Source: the human T2T-CHM13v2.0 reference genome, Homo sapiens. From it: a stretch of DNA of 64,000 bases. Where the stretch lies: assembly GCF_009914755.1 (NCBI RefSeq), contig NC_060933.1, one strand, 5' to 3'. The notes under the pieces are model-generated. The model saw nothing but the letters and a program-made list of their open reading frames with translations, was not told the origin of the DNA and made no database searches. Made by a program: the position numbers and the translations under genes. This document shows positions 3,498 through 46,477 of this stretch, piece after piece; the stretch's first letter is position 1, and every line of letters begins with the position of its first letter.

Positions 3498-4049
3498 TGT
3501 GGACTTAATTTTAGGTGTCAATTTGACTGAATTAAGGAATACCTAAAAACCTGGTAAAGCGTTATTTTGGGTGTGTCTGTGAGGATGTTTCCAGAGATTA
3601 GTGTGTGAGTCTGAATGAATTAGGCAGGGAAGATCTGCCCTCAATGCTGGCAGGCACCATCTAATCAGCCAGGAGCCTAAAGAGAACAAACACAGAAGGC
3701 AAACTGGTCTTTCTCTGAAGCTGGCATGGGCTTTTCTGCTGCTGCCTTGGATATCAGAACTTCAGGGTAGCCGGTCTTTGGGCTCCAGGACTTACACCAG
3801 CAGCACCCTGGGTCCTGAGGCTTTTGACCTTGGACTGAGAGATACACCATCTGCTTTCTAGATTCTGAGGCTTTCAAGTTTGGACAGAGCCACACTACCA
3901 GCATCCCCGGGTCTCCAGCTTGCAGATGGCCTGTCATGGGGTTTTTCAGCCTCCGTAATCATGTGAGCCAATTCCCCAATAAATCCCCTCTCATAGATCT
4001 ATATCAATATCCTATTGGTTCTGTCTCTCTGGAGAACCCTGACTAATAT
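3498..4049 (+). mobile_element. MLT2B (ERVL) LTR carried inside Ricksha
   Basis: tgtgg..ttaattttaggtgtcaatttgactg... through cctattggttctgtctctctggagaaccctgactaata; AATAAA near 3978. Confidence 0.9.
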
Positions 4050-4088
4050 AGATTTGATATCAGGGAAGCCAGATATTATTCTTACTGT

Positions 4089-4606
<518 letters not shown>

Positions 4607-5979
4607 AATACAAATACAATACTCATTGTATTTTGAAGATCTTAGAGGTAAAAATGCAGAACAATACAAGAACTCTCTCCTGGCAAATTATTTAATCATG
4701 TATGACTTCTGCCCCTGTGCACACAGTGCCAGTTTGCCATACTGTTTTTCACCTTCACATTATTACCAATACTGGAGGTATGACTTATGTAAACTTTAGG
4801 GGGTTCTAATTCGTTTTATGCACTTTTTTGCAAATTTGACACCACAAAAGTGCATTATCACAACATTGTCTTTGTATATGAGCATTGCACATGTCCATAA
4901 AAATGTTGAAACTCCCTCAATAAACAAAGAGCTGTCCCTTTTGTATATCTGCGTTTGTGAAAAATAAAATTTCACAAGATCTGGGCTCTTGAGCTACTGC
5001 ATATGTGGTAGTAACCCCTCAAAGTTTTTGAATGATCTTGTCAAATGACTGAGGTTGTCCTTCCAGGTATATCCGATGACCGCAGTTATAAAGCTGACGC
5101 ACACAATTACCAACCATAGTGAAGCACTTTTATACATGTCACTTTTTGACCTCTTTATGAATATGGTTCATCTGCTCATAACTTTTATACTCATGACTGT
5201 AGTTAGTATACCTGAGTGTTTATACTTGCAAAAATATATTTTATTGCCTATTTTACTGTACAAAGTGGCCTATGCAGTGTTTATCATATTTTTATATGTT
5301 TCTCAAATAAATTCCCCTTAAAAACATAAATAAATGTTTTTTAAATAATTTATAAAATTATTGTTTTCCATAATTATATTTTCAGGATTTCAACATTCAG
5401 GATTGTGTCTTTGGGGATGATAGCCCAAGCTCTGCTGGGTTCTGCTGTCATCCGTGTCTCTAATGATTCATGTCACTTAGTCCCTCTGACCTCAGTTTCC
5501 TTATCCAAAACAGTGTCTGGACAATGTGTTTTCATAGCAAGCAGTCCCCAGCCCTTGGTTTTGCCCCCTGTGCTGGGAGGAGTCCCAGGCTATCCTCTCT
5601 CTCCCTGACTGCTGCCCTCATCCTCTGGTCACCAAGGCCTGGGTAAGTTTGCTCTGGTTCTGTTTTTAGAGAGCTGTCTCTCTGGGTTCTATTTGCCAGC
5701 CCCTCCTTAACCGTTGTGGCCCAAACACTCCCTGCTGTGGCCAGCTTTGAGGTACGACCCATCCTTTGTTGTTTTCCTAAACCCAGTCCACACCATTGAA
5801 AAACAAATTCCTTTATTAAACTTCACTTGCTACCCAGCATGAGTGCACCATGATGGATCTGGAATCAAACCCCAGTAATTTGAATCCAGAGTTCTTAACC
5901 ACTACACTGTCCTCATCATCTCAGGATGCAAGTGACTTCACATCTCCTTAGTTTTCTAACCGAACTGATTTGAGCCCCC

Positions 5980-6333
5980 TGTATTAGTCTGTTCTTTTAC
6001 TGCTAATAAAGACATACCCAAGATTGGGTAATTTATAAAGGAAAGTGGATTAATGGACTCAAAGTTCCACATGGCTGGGGAGGCCTCAAAGTCATGGAGG
6101 AAGTCGAATGAGGAGCAAAGTCACGTCTTACACAGTGGCAGGCAAGAGAGAGAACTCCCCTTTATAAAACCATCAGATCTCGTGAGACTTGTTCACTATC
6201 GTGAGAACAGCAGGAGAAAAACCTGCCCCCATGATTCAATTACCTCCCACCAAGTCCCTTCCACGACAGGTGGGAATTACAGGAGCTACAATTCAAGATG
6301 AGATTTGGGTGGGGACACAGCCAAACCAAATCA
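5980..6333 (-). mobile_element. THE1 (MaLR) solo LTR
   Basis: tgtattagtc...gagatttgggtggggacacagccaaaccaaatca; near-TSD CCCCC/CCCCT. Confidence 0.93.
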
Positions 6334-38929: not shown

Positions 38930-39235
38930 ACAGAAGATTGGATCCAGGCAGGGTTTTGGGTGTCATCTAACCCAATTCCTTCATTTAACAGATGGAAAAA
39001 CTGAGGTGGGAGAATCCAGAAGGCCGGTGAGGTAAGGCAGCGTGGTAGAGTAGAATGAACATGGAATTTCCTGACAGTCCAGGGTTCCAATCCAAACTGG
39101 TAACCAGTCAAGGGGCCTTGACCAACTCACTTAATCTCTTTGAGCATCAGTTTCATTTGCTATGAAATGAAAATCATAACACCTAAAAATTATGTGTGTA
39201 TAGTGCCTACTTTTGGTAGGTTTTAAGAACTGATG
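38930..39235. mobile_element. Two adjacent MIR fragments in opposite orientation
   Basis: tttaacagatggaaaaactgagg (antisense) then ctcacttaatctctttgagcatcagtttc (sense). Confidence 0.6.
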
Positions 39236-40454
39236 CCTATTACATTATGACAACCAGTCTAGTAGCCACCTTGCTTGGATCCTGGGAGGGGCCCTACTGA
39301 ACTGGAGGGCAGCATGTCAGCCTGTGCCAGGCAGGGGAAATAAGGAGGTAGCTCATGTGCCCCTTGTCCTCTTATCTATCGACACTCCATCCATAAATGA
39401 TCTTGTCCCATTCCAATGGCTTGCTGTATTTGTCAGAGCTTGGTCAGGGAAACAGAAGCTACATGAAGTATTATAAGCAGTAATGTTTTAATTCAGAGAA
39501 GTAGAGTCTTACGACACTGTTGGAAGGGCTGGGAGCTAGGGTAGGGGGAACTCAAGCTGCTGACCTCAGCTGCATGTAGCACTGAAATGGGTCATTCTCA
39601 AATGCCTGTCCTGAAGTCACTGTAATTTCAAGAGTCTGTAGGAAGCCAGTGCCACTGGCCTACAGCTCCAAGACAGGCAATTCGCTGAGCTTGCCTGGAA
39701 ACCTCTGCAGCCAGTGACTGAACACAGGTCTGCCAGGAACCGATGCTGGAGAACGCTGGTTCCAAATCTTGTGCAAGGGCTCTTAGTGGCTGACTCTAAC
39801 TCACAGCTACACTGGGAAGATTTCTGGGAAATGTGTTTCCAGGTCCTCCCCTGTGATGCAGACAGAATGTGGCAGGAGGTGGTATTGATGCCAAATTATC
39901 AGCCCACAAACAAACATGAACATTATTCCTTTTTAAAACATTTTTTCATTCTTCACTGCATGCAATAAACACTTATAGTGCCCAAGACTGTGTGAGACCT
40001 AGTCTGTATGATTATCACAAATATAATAGAGACCACAAACATGAATGGGAGTGAGAAGGGGAATGTGGTACTCTTTATTCTCTTTTAAAAATTGCCTTTT
40101 TATCAGGAATATTGGCCTGAAATTTTTTTATTGTTACGTCTCTGCCAGGTTTTGGTATAAGGATGATGCTGGTCTCATAAAATGAGTTAGGGAGAAGTTT
40201 CTCTTTTTCTGTTGTTTGGAATAGTTTCACCAGCTCCTTTTTGTGCCTCTGTGGCTCACCGGCTGTGAGTCCGTCTGGTCCTGGACTTTTTTTGATTTGT
40301 AGGCTATTAATTACTGCCTCAATTTTAGAGCTTGTTACTGGTCTATTCAGGGATTCGACTTCTTCCTGGTTTAGTCTTGGGAAGGGTGTATGCATCCAGG
40401 AATTTATCCATTTCGTCTAGATTTTCTAGTTTATTTGCATAGAGGTATTTATAG

Positions 40455-40850
<396 letters not shown>

Positions 40851-42502
40851 TTAAGAAAAAACAGCTCCTAGATTCATTGAGTTTTTGAAGGGTTTTCATG
40901 TCTCTATCTCCTTCAGTTTGGCTCCGATCTTAGTTATTTCTTGTCTTCTGCTAGCTTTTGAGTTTGTTTGCTCTTGCTTCTCTAGTTCATTTAATTGTGA
41001 TGTTAGGGTTTTAGATCTTTCTAAATGTTTGATAATAGTTCTTTCCTGCTTTCTGCTGTGGGCATTTAGTGCTATAAATTTCCCTCTAAACACTGCTTTA
41101 GCTGTGTCACAGAGATTCTGGTATGTTGTGTCTTTGTTCTCATTGGTTTTAAAAACTTATTTATTTCTTCCTTGATTTCATTATTTACCCAGTAGTCTTT
41201 CAGGAGCAGGTTGTTCAGTTTCCATGTAGTTGTGCGGTTTTGAGTGAGTTTCTTCATCCTGAGTTCTAATTTGATTGCACTGTGGTCTGAGAGACTGTTT
41301 GTTACAATTTCCATTCTTTTGCATTTGCTGAGGAGTGCTTTACTTCCAATTATGTGGTCAATTTTAGAATAAGTGTGATGTGGTGCTGAAAAGATTGTAC
41401 ATTCTGTTGATTTGGGGTGGAGAGTTCTGTAGATGTCTATTAGGTGTTCTTGGTCCAGAGCTGAGTTCAAATCCTGGATATCCTTGTTAATTTTCTGTCT
41501 CGTTGTTCTGTCTAATATTGACAGTGGGGTGTTAAAGCCTCCCACTATTATTGTGTGGGAGGCTAAGTCTCTTTGTAGGTCTCTAAGAACTTGCTTTATG
41601 AATCTGGGTGCCCTGTATTGGCTGCAAATATATTTAGGATAATTAGCTCTTCTTGTTGCATTGATCCCTTTGCCATTATGTAATGCCCTTCTTTGTCTTT
41701 TTTGATCTTTGTTGGTTTAAAGTCTGTTTTATCAGAGACTAGGATTGCAACTCCTGCTTTTTTTTTTTTTTTTTTTTTTGCTTTCCATTTGCTTGGTAAA
41801 TCTTCCTCCATCCCTTTATTTTGAGCCAATGTGTATGTCTTTGCATGTGAGATGGGTCTGTTGAATACAGCACACTGATGGGTCTTGACTCTTTATCCAA
41901 TTTGCCAGTCTGTGTCTTCTAATTGGGGCATTTAGCCCATTTACATTTAAGGTTAATATTGTTATGTATGGATTTGATCCTGTCATTATGATGCTAGCTG
42001 GTTATTTTGCCCTTTAGTTGATGCAGTTTCTTCATAGTGTCAATGGTCATTATAGTTTGGTATGTTTTTGCAGTGGCTGGTCCCGGTGATGACAAAATCT
42101 CTCAGCATTTGCTTGTCTGTAAAGGATTTTATTTCTTCTTTGCTTATGAAGCTTAGTTTGTGAAAATCCTCAATAAAATACTGGCAAACGAAATCCAGCA
42201 GCCCGTTAAAAAGCTTATCCACCACGATCAACTTGGCTTCATCCCTGGGATGCAAGGCTGGTTCAACATATGCAAATCAATAAATGTAATCCATAACATA
42301 AACAGACCCAATGACAAAAACCACATGATTATCTCAATAGATGCAGAAAAGGCCTTTGATAAAATTCAACTCTGCTTCATGCTAAAAACTCTCAATAAAC
42401 TAGGTATTGATGGAACGTATCTCAAAATAATAAGAGCTGTTTATGACACACCCACAGCCAATATCATACTGAATGGGCAAAAGCTGTAAATTTTGCCTTT
42501 GA

Positions 42503-42607
<105 letters not shown>

Positions 42608-43287
42608 TAGGAAGAGAGGAAGTCAGATTATCTCTGTTTGCAAATGACATGATTGTATATTTAGAAAACCCCATTGTCTCAGCCCAAAATCTCCTTAAGC
42701 TGATAAGCAACTTCAGCAAAGTCTCAGGGTACAAAATCAATGTGCAAAAATCACAAGCATTCTTATACACCAATAACAGAGACCAAATCATGAGTGAACT
42801 CCCATTCACAATTGCTACAAAGGGAATAAAATACCTAGGAATCCAACTGACAAGGGACGTGAAGGACTTCTTCAAGGAGAACTACAAACCACTGCTGAAG
42901 GAAATAAGAGAGGATACAAACAAATGGAAAAACATTCCATGCTCATGGATAGGAAGAATCAATATTGTAAAAATGCCATACTGCCCAAAGTAATTTATAG
43001 ATTCATTGCCATCCTCATCAAGCTACCATTGATTTTCTCCACAGAATTAGAATAAACTATTTTAAATTTCATATGGAATCAAAACAGAGCCCGTATAGCC
43101 AAGACAATCCTAAGCAAAAAGAACGAAGCTGGAGGCATCTTGCTACCTGACTTCAAACTATACTACAAGGCTACAGTAACCAAAACAGCATGGTACTGGT
43201 ACCAAAACAGATATATAGACCAATGGAACAGAACAGAGGCCTCAGAAATAACACCACACAGCTACAACAATCTGATCTTTGATAAAC

Positions 43288-43863
43288 CTGACAAAAACAA
43301 GCAATGGGGAAAATATTCCCTATTTAATAAATGGTGTTGGGAAAACTGGCTAGCCATGTGCAGAAAACTGAAACTGGACCCCTTCTTTACATCTTATAAA
43401 AAATTAACACAAGATAGATTATAGACTTAAACATAAGACCTAAAACCATAAAAACTCTAGAAGAAAACCTAGGCAATACTATTCAGGATATAGCCATGGG
43501 CAAAAGTTTTCTCCCATTCTGTAGGTTGCCTGTTCACTCTGATGGTAGTTTCTTTTGCTGTGCAGAAGCTCTTAAGTTTAATTAGATCCCATCTGTCAAT
43601 TTTGGCTTTTGTTGCCATTGCTTTTGGTGTTTTAGTCATGAAGTCATTGCCCATGCCTATATCCTGAATAGTATTGCCTAGGTTTTCTTCTAGAGTTTTT
43701 ATGGTTTTAGGTCTTATGTTTAAGTCTATAATCTATCTTGTGTTAATTTTTTTATAAGGTGTAAAGAAGGGGTCCAGTTTCAGTTTTCTGCACATGGCTA
43801 GCCAGTTTTCCCAACACCATTTATTAAATAGGGAATATTTTCCCCATTGCTTGTTTTTGTCAG
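43288..43863. repeat. 216/217-bp inverted repeat with 143-bp spacer (within L1)
   Basis: 43288-43503 is the reverse complement of 43647-43863 with 3 differences. Confidence 0.95.
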
Positions 43864-46477
43864 AAAACTTTTGCAATCTATCCATCTGGCAAAGGGCTAA
43901 TATCCAGAATCTACAAAGAACTTAAACAAATTTACAAGAAAAAAAAAACCCATCAAAAAATGGGCAAAGGATATGAACAGACACTTCTCAAGACATTTAT
44001 GCACTCAAGAAACATGAAAAAAAGCTTAACACCACTGGTCACTAGAGAAATGCAATCAAAACCACAATGAGATATCATCCCATGCCAGTAGGATGGAGAT
44101 CATTAAAAGTCAGGAAACAACAAATGCTGGAGAGGATGTGGAGAAATAGGAAAGCTTTGACACTGTTGATGGGTGTGTAAATTAGTTCAACCATTGTGGA
44201 AGACAGTGTGGCAATTCCTCAGGGATCTAGAACCAGAAATACCGTTTGACCCAGCAATCTCATTACTGGGTATATACCCAAAGGATTATAAATCATTCTA
44301 CTATAAAGACACATGCACACGTATGTTTATTGCAGCATTGTTCACAATAGCAACGATTTGGAACTAACCCAAATGCCCATCAATGATAGAATGGATAAAG
44401 AAAATGTGACACATATACACCATGGAATATGAAGCAGCCATATAAAAGGATGAGTTCATGTCCTTTGCAGGGACATAAATGAAGTTGGAAACCATCAGTC
44501 TCAGCAAACTAACACAGGAACAGAAAAACACTGCATGTTCTCACTCATAAGTGGGAGCTGAACAATGAAAACACATGGACACAGGGAGGGGAACATCACA
44601 CACCGGGGCCTGTTAGGGGGTGGGGGGCTAGTGGAGGGACAGCATTAGGAGAAATACCTAATGTAGATGATGGGTTGATAGATGTAGCAAACCACCATGG
44701 CACGTGTATACCCATGTAACAAACCTGCACGTTCTGCATATGTATCCCAGAACTTAAAGTATAATTTAAAAAATGCTCTTTTAGCACAAAAGTATGGAAA
44801 TAAAAATGAAAGAGAAGGAAACCAATGGTGGCCTCACTTTTATCTACCTGTCCCCAAAGCAAACAACTTCTCACCATGAAGTTTATTTTTTTAAAAATTA
44901 GTCATTCCAGTTATTCATTGAGCCTTTATGAAGCCTAACATGAGTTTCAAATATTGGCTAAGAGTAGGAGCTATATTCTGATATAAAGAGACTCTTAATA
45001 ATTTCCAAAATGTCTGATGCAGTGAAGCCCTTTCAGCGAATTAATACAATGAAGAAAAATAGCATTCCTTTTAAGAGGGATGATCAGGACAATAGGAGAA
45101 GTAATTCTCGAAAGTTGAGACATGTGTCCTGGTTCTTAACTCTGACCATATCTTTTTTCCACCCTCTTTCTTCATTTTCTTGTTCTGCAGTTCTCTTTTC
45201 TGTCCTCTGCCTACTTGTGCCATTTGCTCTTCCCTTTCTAACAGACTTGGCCATAGCCAGTGATGGTCACCCCCCACCCAGGAATGCTGATTGTGTGACT
45301 GTAAATCATTTGCAAATCACATGATTAGCTGCCTGGAGCTGCCTGATTAGTCTGCTAGGCCTCAGAATGTGTCCTCCTTGAACCCCTCCTCCATCCCACA
45401 TACATCTTTGTCACTGGATTTCAAATACAGATAGTGCACAGGAAGAGATAAGAGCCATTTTTTTCCAGTATCCTCTCCACCCTCACCCCACACTCACCAT
45501 TCTACCCAATGGAAAAGAAATGAGATAATTAGAATTCTTCTTTCATTAGAAAATTTGCAAGATGAGACCCAAGAGGTGGAGCATGCCAGATGTTGTGGAG
45601 AGCATGACTGCTCAGTCCCTTTGGCCATACATGCTGAAGTCATGAAATTGGGAAATCTGACTCAGGAGTCACCATCTAGTGTAGGAGCTGACAAAGCACC
45701 AAATGCTCTGGGACAACTGGTCAACCTGCCAGTCCCTGGAGCACAGGCCTGGTGTGAGTTTGCTCTCAGGTCGTGATCAGTCAGAGGGGAACGGGAGAGT
45801 TGGGGCTCCTTCTGCACATTCTAGGAAACCCTGAAAGGCTCAGATTCAAGGTGAGCTGTGAGCTGGGAATACCTGCAGTTGCAAGGGAAGGCCTGTTGAT
45901 ATTTCTGATTCTTCCTGAGTGCCTGGAGTCTACCTCCAGGTGAATGGTAGAGTACCTTGGATGCATATGTCTCTTTTAGGTGTCAGAGGAATAAGATACG
46001 ATGCTCTAATAGGTTTCAATGACAGAATGTGAGAAAGAACATACTTCTATGCCTTTTCTGTTACAGCTATATCTTTTTTAAAATTACGATGTGAGTGAGT
46101 CATCACTTTCTAAAAAATGAACAAAGACATAAGAGGGAACAAGGTTTTAAATACAGGCTCTGGGCTCAGCTTGTTCCTCACTGAGCCCAATTCCAATCAG
46201 TTCTTGGTCTGTCCTAAGCTGTTGTTCCAGGTCTAAGTGGTACATTTATCCCAATTTTTAAAAATAGATTCAGAAAGTTTGAGCTCTGTGCTACTTTTCT
46301 CCAGTCTTGACACAACTTGGAAAAGCAAATAGGATCTGCCTCCTCAGCTTTGCTTATCAGCTCTGGGACCACTCCAGGTTTCCTTCATTCCCTAAAGCCT
46401 GGAATGTCCTTTCAGGCTCACATGGAGAGACATTCCTCAGACAAGGGGTCCTCTAATCAATATCACCCAGGTGGCCT

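What the first reader, a model, noticed from the sequence alone, without database searches (positions are those of the whole stretch)
43288..43874. Post-insertion inverted duplication inside an old L1: a readable four-point template-switch event leaving a 216-bp quasi-palindrome
Seen in sequence: sense L1 runs to ...CATGGGCAA (43503), jumps to the opposite strand about 150 bp downstream via 4-bp microhomology GCAA, and copies backwards ~360 bp to ...TTTGTCAG (43863). It then resumes sense at AGAAAACTTTTGC via 2-bp microhomology AG. The result is arms 43288-43503 and 43647-43863 differing at only 3 positions (t/c, A6/A7, c/g), plus a second short inverted repeat GCAAAAGTTTTCT / AGAAAACTTTTGC. 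Both arms share private lesions, including the nonsense change TGG>TAG in ORF2 R-W-I. Inference: the event happened long after this L1PA7-like copy inserted, by replication template switching (FoSTeS/MMBIR type), not twin priming. The long inverted repeat could form cruciform DNA or dsRNA and could flip the spacer by recombination.
Basis: partly seen in the sequence, partly recalled or inferred. Interest (0 to 1): 0.8.

Follow-up and report, generated by a model that had tools for sequence, protein, structure and literature searches.

The report
Small inversion-duplication inside an old L1
A dead L1 retrotransposon in an intron-like part of CCDC171 later suffered a local rearrangement that flipped 143 bases and left a 216-base inverted repeat, an ordinary example of a known kind of human structural mutation.

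Summary
Arms 43288-43503 and 43647-43863 are reverse complements with 3 differences. A 13-nt inverted repeat sits at 43500-43512 / 43862-43874. The 143-bp spacer is L1 sequence present only in antisense. The layout is X-A-[D'B'A']-D-Y, with 4-bp (GCAA) and 2-bp (AG) junction microhomologies.

All 29 other L1 copies fetched from the same genome are colinear A-B-D. Both junctions are unique in the genome.

The arms share 10 departures from the majority of those copies; 2 substitutions and 1 deletion are private to arm 1. An insertion-age duplication predicts 11-22 arm-to-arm substitutions, against 2 seen (P = 1e-3 to 8e-8). So the event is far younger than the L1, unless gene conversion homogenised the arms.

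The structure matches the rare "3-1-4-2" type of the four-point template-switch model (PMC5453318) and a miniature dupINVdup. Staggered breaks with fill-in and end joining give the same product, so the mechanism is inferred, not shown.

Verdict: real, well read, a known kind, modest interest.

The parts
40099..42160 (-). 5' part of the host L1, antisense (reference copy L035 positions 3814 down to 1989). It is interrupted by an antisense Alu at about 40513-40768. This is the twin-priming-type 5' inversion of the original insertion.
   Evidence: blastn against the long L1 copies L035, L033 and L037; Alu and its target-site duplication read
42159..43287 (+). Sense L1 ORF2 remnant upstream of the rearrangement (reference 3821 onward), labelled X.
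   Evidence: 46 departures in 1071 compared columns against 29 copies
43288..43503 (+). Arm 1 = segment A in sense, 216 nt. It carries all 3 arm-private changes: T at 43392, a 1-nt loss in the A-run 43398-43403, and C at 43494.
43500..43503 (.). Junction 1, GCAA microhomology (4 bp). It is both the end of sense A and the reverse complement of TTGC at the end of D.
   Evidence: read; junction 30-mer unique in the genome at up to 3 mismatches
43500..43512 (-). D' = inverted copy of the 13-nt segment D (GCAAAAGTTTTCT).
   Evidence: pair I5, 13 of 13 complementary
43504..43646 (-). Spacer, 143 nt, made of D' (beyond the 4-bp overlap) plus B'. This L1 ORF2 sequence is present only in antisense; no sense copy of B remains.
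   Evidence: its translation matches ORF2p residues about 992-1040
43647..43863 (-). Arm 2 = A' (antisense copy of A, 217 nt). It keeps the majority state at all 3 positions where the arms differ.
43862..43863 (.). Junction 2, AG microhomology (2 bp).
   Evidence: read; junction 32-mer unique in the genome at up to 3 mismatches
43862..43874 (+). D in sense (AGAAAACTTTTGC), where the sense L1 resumes.
43875..44774 (+). Sense L1 to its 3' end (reference up to 6235), followed by a short A-run. Labelled Y.
   Evidence: 53 departures in 876 columns

Best explanation
An old primate L1 inserted here with a twin-priming-type 5' inversion and decayed for most of its residence time. Much later, a single local rearrangement turned the colinear stretch A-B-D (364 bp of the ORF2 remnant) into A-[D'B'A']-D. 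This inverted the 143-bp spacer, flanked it with inverted duplications of 216 bp (A) and 13 bp (D), and added 223 bp net.

Most likely mechanism (inferred): a replication error. The nascent strand left its template at the end of A, annealed through GCAA to the complementary strand at the end of D, and copied 364 nt backwards to the start of A. It then returned through AG to the original template at the start of D. In the four-point model this is switch-point order 3-1-4-2, an inter-strand template switch of the FoSTeS/MMBIR or long 'short-range TSM' kind.

Shown: the structure, the microhomologies, uniqueness in the genome, colinearity of the paralogues, and the youth of the arms relative to the element. 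Inferred: that it was a single event, that it was replicative, and that the present spacer orientation is the original one.

The product is inert L1 debris. Its only plausible activity is structural: a 216-bp hairpin in single-stranded DNA, or in any CCDC171 pre-mRNA that runs through it.
For: - Structure.
- The antisense block 43500-43864 is one contiguous L1 segment (reference L035 5317 to 4953) overlapping both sense neighbours (5171 and 5305).
- 29 of 29 other L1 copies are colinear across A-B-D.
- Junctions J1 and J2 each occur once in the 3.1-Gb genome at up to 3 mismatches, with reversed-pattern controls at 0. So the rearrangement was not inherited from a rearranged source element that left other offspring.
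- Dating: flanks show 99 departures in 1947 columns (5.1%). The arms show 10 shared departures, 2 arm-1-only and 0 arm-2-only. Expected arm-to-arm substitutions at insertion age are 22.0, with P(2 or fewer) = 7.6e-8.
- Conservative dating with strictly private changes only (51 of 2025, 2.5%) gives 10.9 expected and P = 1.3e-3.
- The event falls at about 9% (1-33%) or 18% (2-66%) of the element's residence time.
- Microhomologies of 4 and 2 bp fit the 1-15 bp reported for most human inverted duplications, for which a replicative origin was suggested (PMC12350158, passages).
- Type 3-1-4-2 is described as creating two inverted repeats around an inverted spacer (PMC5453318, passages).
Against: - The same product is predicted by two pairs of staggered breaks, fill-in and end joining (PMC1885836), and by repair of several simultaneous breaks (PMC5338099). 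Junctions with 2-4 bp of microhomology do not discriminate between these.
- Shared lesions and near-identical arms would also result from gene conversion between older arms.
- Type 3-1-4-2 made up only 1% of 794 short events. The copied fragment (364 nt) exceeds the longest event reported by the author's later scan (318 bp, with most 10 bp or shorter).
- All three arm differences are derived in arm 1, which no model predicts. The chance of this under equal rates is about 0.25 (my arithmetic).
- The 29 comparison copies were picked by similarity to the query itself, which biases counts within A and B. The flank counts are not affected.
- No ancestral, unrearranged allele of this locus was seen.
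Confidence: 0.55

Rival explanations
1. Break-and-repair origin. [quoted passage not shown] These were filled in and the middle piece was rejoined in reverse by end joining. Staggered double-strand breaks on paired chromatids are a variant. [quoted passage not shown] It is still post-insertion and a single event.
For: The product is exactly what the model predicts: duplications of originally single-copy sequence from both breakpoints, in inverted orientation, at the two ends of the inverted piece. The model is set out in PMC1885836 (passages), where duplications had a median of 321 bp and a minimum of 46 bp. PMC5338099 treats multiple-break repair as an equal alternative to MMBIR/FoSTeS for inversions flanked by copy-number changes. 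Microhomology of 2-4 bp is compatible with end joining.
Against: - It needs four coordinated nicks within 364 bp and unwinding of 216 nt. The authors themselves note the unwinding length as a difficulty.
- The two staggers are very unequal (216 against 13).
- Human inverted duplications of this size are attributed to replication in the 1,019-genome survey, though that too is inference.
Confidence: 0.22
2. Old event masked by gene conversion. The inverted block arose at or near insertion, for example by a template switch to the L1 RNA during second-strand synthesis of an already complex twin-primed insertion. Repeated conversion between the arms then kept them about 99% identical.
For: The host insertion was demonstrably complex, with a twin-priming-type 5' inversion. 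Close inverted repeats are known to undergo conversion (general knowledge, recalled). Shared lesions are expected under conversion as much as under late duplication.
Against: - Homogeneity runs the whole 216 nt right up to both junctions with only 3 differences. Arms as old as the insertion should differ at 11-22 sites.
- This needs repeated or full-length conversion of short arms separated by 143 nt.
- It needs an extra process on top of an insertion-time switch.
- No patchwork of diverged and converted tracts is seen.
Confidence: 0.08
3. Two-step history. First an inverted copy of A (about 212-216 bp) was inserted just after D with a short duplication of D, giving A-B-D-A'-D. Later, recombination between the two arms flipped the spacer to the present orientation.
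For: Arms 216 nt long and 98.6% identical could support intramolecular recombination that inverts the spacer (inference). The flipped form is a plain inverted duplication, the commonest inversion-type class in humans, with 277 events of median length 284 bp (PMC12350158).
Against: It needs two events where one suffices. In four-point terms the first step has point 4 before point 1, a class not observed among the events of PMC5453318. Arms of about 200 bp are near the lower limit for efficient homologous exchange (recalled, not tested).
Confidence: 0.08
4. An independent antisense L1 fragment nested in the older L1, or an assembly or read artefact (fold-back chimera).
For: Inverted L1 pieces next to each other are common in the genome. 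Palindromic chimeras are a known long-read artefact (recalled).
Against: - The antisense piece has no poly(A), no 3' end and no target-site duplication of its own. It replaces the sense copy of B exactly.
- It shares 10 departures with arm 1, three of them found in 0 of 29 other copies.
- Independent inverted repeats in 39 control loci are 70-88% identical.
- An artefactual fold-back would give identical arms with no return to the sense strand 13 nt upstream. Here there are 3 differences and a second junction.
Confidence: 0.03

Closest known systems
Four-point template-switch mutation, type '3-1-4-2' (Loytynoja & Goldman 2017, PMC5453318)
   Same: The switch-point order is the start of A, the end of A, the start of D, then the end of D. 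The product has two inverted repeats around an inverted spacer. The event requires an inter-strand switch, and point 4 does not precede point 1.
   Different: Scale is the main difference. The copied fragment is 364 nt and the arm 216 nt, whereas most described events are 10 bp or shorter and the longest reported was 318 bp. The event also lies in masked repeat sequence, which those scans filtered out. No sister-lineage ancestral allele is available here.
dupINVdup complex structural variant (Collins et al. 2017, PMC5338099) and small inverted duplications in 1,019 long-read genomes (PMC12350158)
   Same: It is an inversion flanked by duplications at both ends. Its microhomology-only junctions and size are close to the median 284-bp inverted duplications.
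   Different: The dupINVdup class was defined at kilobase-to-megabase resolution, whereas here the inverted unique part is 143 bp. Whether this locus is polymorphic is unknown. The held supplement of PMC12350158 has no coordinate table of inversions.
Inversions with inverted duplications from staggered breaks (Ranz et al. 2007, PMC1885836)
   Same: The end product is identical in topology. The duplication sizes overlap (46 bp to 1.9 kb, median 321 bp).
   Different: Those are chromosomal inversions of many kilobases to megabases in Drosophila. Here the whole event spans 587 bp within one retrotransposon.
L1 twin priming (Ostertag & Kazazian 2001; cited in PMC12350158, original not read)
   Same: Both give inverted L1 sequence abutting sense L1 sequence. 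The host element shows the classic form at 42159/42160, with 6 reference positions missing at the junction.
   Different: The internal event has sense L1 on both sides, duplicates 216 nt, and is far younger than the insertion.

Membership tests
Four-point template-switch event, type 3-1-4-2 | A fragment is copied in reverse complement from the nearby complementary strand and replaces the 1-to-4 interval | tested here: met
   43500-43864 equals the reverse complement of one contiguous L1 segment (reference L035 5317 to 4953). It matches as a single piece in 29 of 29 other copies.
Four-point template-switch event, type 3-1-4-2 | Switch points ordered 3 < 1 < 4 < 2, giving two inverted repeats around an inverted spacer | tested here: met
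   In reference coordinates the points fall at 3 = 4953, 1 = 5171, 4 = 5305 and 2 = 5317. The repeats are 216 nt and 13 nt. The definition is from PMC5453318.
Four-point template-switch event, type 3-1-4-2 | The ancestral unrearranged allele is seen in a sister lineage or second haplotype | not testable with these tools
   No primate genomes or other human assemblies are held. Only paralogous L1 copies were compared.
Four-point template-switch event, type 3-1-4-2 | Short range, with a copied fragment of tens of bases | tested here: not met
   The copied fragment is 364 nt here. The literature reports most events at 10 bp or shorter and the longest at 318 bp.
dupINVdup complex structural variant | An inverted segment flanked on both sides by duplicated sequence, with three or more junction features in cis | tested here: met
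   Layout A-[D'B'A']-D. The class is named in PMC5338099.
L1 twin priming (as an explanation of the internal inverted block) | The inverted piece sits at the 5' end of the insertion, with no sense L1 upstream, and both pieces date from the insertion | tested here: not met
   Sense L1 42159-43503 lies upstream. The arms differ at 2 substitutions against 11-22 expected at insertion age.
L1 twin priming (host element 40099-44774) | The 5' segment is inverted and covers L1 positions just upstream of where the sense segment starts, with a small deletion or duplication at the junction, plus a poly(A) and target-site duplication | tested here: met
   Antisense 3814 to 1989 is followed by sense 3821 to 6235, with 6 reference positions missing. 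There is a short A-run at the 3' end. A possible 10-nt target-site duplication with one mismatch was read by eye, and this last feature is weak.
Inversion by recombination between pre-existing inverted repeats | Inverted repeats existed at the breakpoints before the inversion | tested here: not met
   29 of 29 colinear L1 copies have A only once and in sense. No inverted match of 95% or more was found in 39 control loci.

The most novel reading that the evidence does not exclude
The event is specific to the human or African-ape lineage, or is still polymorphic. It would be one of the longest clean single-event '3-1-4-2' template switches, bridging the size gap between base-scale template-switch mutations and kilobase dupINVdup variants. 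Its 216-bp near-perfect hairpin, lying in sense orientation within long CCDC171 transcript models, would be an ADAR or small-RNA substrate. Its spacer might also toggle between haplotypes by arm-to-arm recombination.
Probability: 0.2. Interest if true: 0.4.

Novelty: new member of a known kind. Interest (0 to 1): 0.25.

Why it matters
The main value is as a teaching-quality example. Both parental sequences of each junction survive at the locus, so all four switch points and both microhomologies can be read without an outgroup. The host L1's own decay also serves as an internal clock showing that the event came late.

The event sits at a size (364 nt copied, 216-nt arms) that scans for short template switches rarely reach and that short-read structural-variant catalogues miss. 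That supports the view that one process may span both scales.

Functionally it is most likely neutral debris. A long hairpin in an intron-like region could matter only if it is transcribed, as double-stranded RNA or an editing substrate, or if it provokes fork stalling.

Tried and rejected
1. Rearranged source element. Junction 30-mer and 32-mer searches in the whole genome at up to 3 mismatches found only this locus. Rejected.

2. Nested independent antisense L1. Rejected on anatomy and shared lesions.

3. Known structured RNA. Rfam at gathering thresholds over 39900-45000 gave 0 matches.

4. Earlier notes of this scan.

5. Polymorphism look-up. I searched the held spreadsheet of PMC12350158 for position prefixes around the CHM13 coordinates and around my recalled, approximate GRCh38 equivalent, and found 0 hits. 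The sheet list shows the held, truncated file has no per-locus inversion or inverted-duplication table. The blank therefore says nothing about polymorphism.

6. PDB comparison of the whole antisense block. The first attempt failed on the in-frame stop. The 77 residues after the stop match human ORF2p 965-1040 (E = 5e-39), which places the event in the C-terminal third of ORF2. This has no bearing on mechanism.

7. Extended homology at the switch points. Reading, nothing beyond GCAA and AG matches.

8. Subfamily naming (L1PA7). No repeat library was available, so this was not tested.

Full report
**What is there**

The sequence and the repeat finder show two inverted-repeat blocks, 43288-43403/43748-43863 and 43398-43503/43647-43752. 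Together they form one arm pair of 216 and 217 nt. A gapped alignment finds exactly three differences:
- T/C at 43392
- A6/A7 at the run 43398-43403
- C/G at 43494

A second, exact 13-nt inverted repeat lies at 43500-43512 / 43862-43874. This is the only inverted repeat of 60 nt or more within 3 kb in the whole 64-kb window.

**Anatomy**

I mapped window 39001-46000 onto a long L1 copy from the same genome (L035). It reads as follows:

| Window | Reference L035 | Orientation |
|---|---|---|
| 42159-43504 | 3821 to 5171 | sense |
| 43500-43864 | 5317 to 4953 | antisense |
| 43862-44774 | 5305 to 6235 (3' end) | sense |

Call A = 4953-5171, B = 5172-5304 and D = 5305-5317. The locus is then X-A-[D'B'A']-D-Y. 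B exists only in antisense.

The unrearranged partner of each breakpoint survives in the other copy, so the junctions can be read directly:
- J1 joins ...ATGGGCAA (sense A) to the reverse complement of ...TTGC (end of D) through GCAA.
- J2 joins ...TTTGTCAG (reverse complement of the start of A) to AGAAAAC... (start of D) through AG.

The net gain is 587 - 364 = 223 bp (my arithmetic from these coordinates).

**Is the colinear form the normal one, and is the event local?**

A search of the window's own 3.1-Gb genome with 43288-43874 scored 40 of 6977 first-look candidates. Apart from the locus itself, every scored L1 matched the antisense block as one colinear piece. blastn of three window pieces against the 29 fetched copies shows A-B-D colinear in 29 of 29.

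A 30-mer across J1 and a 32-mer across J2 each occur once in the genome at up to 3 mismatches, with reversed-pattern controls at 0. So the rearrangement is not a feature of a source element that left other offspring.

In 39 other L1-bearing loci (about 196 kb), self inverted matches of 60 nt or more are all 70-88% identical Alu-type pairs, against 98.6% here.

**Timing**

I compared the window with the column majority of the 29 copies.
- The flanking sense L1 departs at 99 of 1947 compared columns (5.1%).
- Within the arms, 10 departures are shared by both arms, 2 are in arm 1 only and 0 are in arm 2 only.
- The indel is a 1-nt loss in arm 1, in an A-run that itself contains a shared C>A change.

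Arms as old as the insertion should differ at about 22 substitutions, and 2 are seen (P = 7.6e-8).

A conservative count uses only changes found in at most 1 of the 29 copies. That gives 51 of 2025 in the flanks (2.5%), an expectation of 10.9 and P = 1.3e-3. The event therefore falls at roughly 9% (1-33%) to 18% (2-66%) of the element's residence time.

Under recalled neutral rates of 0.5-1.7e-9 per site per year, this is about 3-9 million years, with limits of 0.3-33. The absolute dates rest on recalled rates and on two substitutions, so they are soft.

Two caveats apply. The 29 copies were chosen by similarity to the query, which deflates counts inside A and B but not in the flanks. The TGG>TAG stop at 43416/43734 is shared by both arms, but the same base occurs in 5 of 29 copies, so it is not strictly private. 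Three other shared changes are strictly private (0 of 29).

**Mechanism**

The product is the '3-1-4-2' type of the four-point model. [quoted passage not shown]

At 364 nt the copied fragment is longer than the longest event in the later human scan (318 bp, with most 10 bp or shorter; bioRxiv 10.1101/2021.11.26.470150, passages).

At the structural-variant scale the same topology is called dupINVdup. The authors treat MMBIR/FoSTeS and synchronous repair of several breaks as equally consistent with it (PMC5338099, passages).

Long-read data from 1,019 people list 277 inverted duplications with a median of 284 bp, mostly with 1-15 bp of microhomology, and suggest a replicative origin (PMC12350158, passages).

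The Drosophila staggered-break model gives an identical product, with duplications of median 321 bp (PMC1885836, passages).

I therefore favour a single inter-strand template switch (about 0.55) over break-and-repair (about 0.22). Nothing in this one sequence separates them.

**Other rivals**

- *Insertion-time origin.* It is mechanistically conceivable through a switch to the L1 RNA during second-strand synthesis (inference), and the host insertion was complex. It also needs gene conversion across the full arms (about 0.08).
- *Two-step path.* An inverted duplication A-B-D-A'-D followed by a spacer flip needs an unobserved switch-point class (point 4 before point 1) plus a second event (about 0.08).
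- *Nested insertion or artefact.* This is contradicted by the anatomy, the shared lesions and the three arm differences (about 0.03).

**Properties of the product**

As a single strand, 43270-43890 folds into one long hairpin:
- RNA: -398.7 kcal/mol against -137.0 +/- 7.6 for 20 shuffles
- DNA: -252.2 kcal/mol against -57.8 +/- 4.1 for 20 shuffles

No Rfam family matches.

The gene table supplied with the finding places the site between exons of non-selected CCDC171 transcript models, on the same strand as the sense L1. A hairpin RNA is therefore possible if those models are real. That point is inference only.

The antisense block encodes ORF2p residues up to about 1040. The element is long dead, with a stop in both arms and a frameshift in arm 1.

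**Surroundings**

The host L1 is itself 5'-inverted. Window 40099-42160 is antisense (reference 3814 to 1989) and abuts sense 3821 onward, with 6 reference positions missing. This is the twin-priming pattern. An antisense Alu with a target-site duplication interrupts the inverted part.

**Verdict**

This is a new instance of a known kind and of modest interest.

Noticed in passing
window 40099-42160 and 42159-44774: The host L1 has a twin-priming-type 5' inversion. Antisense reference positions 3814 to 1989 are followed by sense 3821 to 6235, with 6 reference positions missing at the junction 42159/42160. About 50 reference positions (2068-2116) are also missing at about 42082-42087.
   Followed up: partly
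window about 40513-40768: An antisense Alu, with a leading T-run and truncated at its far end, is inserted into the inverted part of the L1. It is flanked by a direct repeat...ATCATTTTTT, on both sides (read).
   Followed up: partly
window about 40079-40088 and 44776-44785: Possible 10-nt target-site duplication of the L1, T(T/G)CTCTTTTA with one mismatch, read by eye. The poly(A) is reduced to about 6 A.
   Followed up: no
window 43392, 43398-43403, 43494: All three differences between the arms are derived in the sense arm, while the antisense arm keeps the majority state at each. With only three events this is compatible with chance (about 0.25).
   Followed up: partly
window 43416 / 43734: The TGG>TAG stop shared by both arms is also present in 5 of the 29 most similar L1 copies. 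The likely cause is that the copies were ranked by similarity to a query containing this base twice. Recurrent mutation was not excluded.
   Followed up: no
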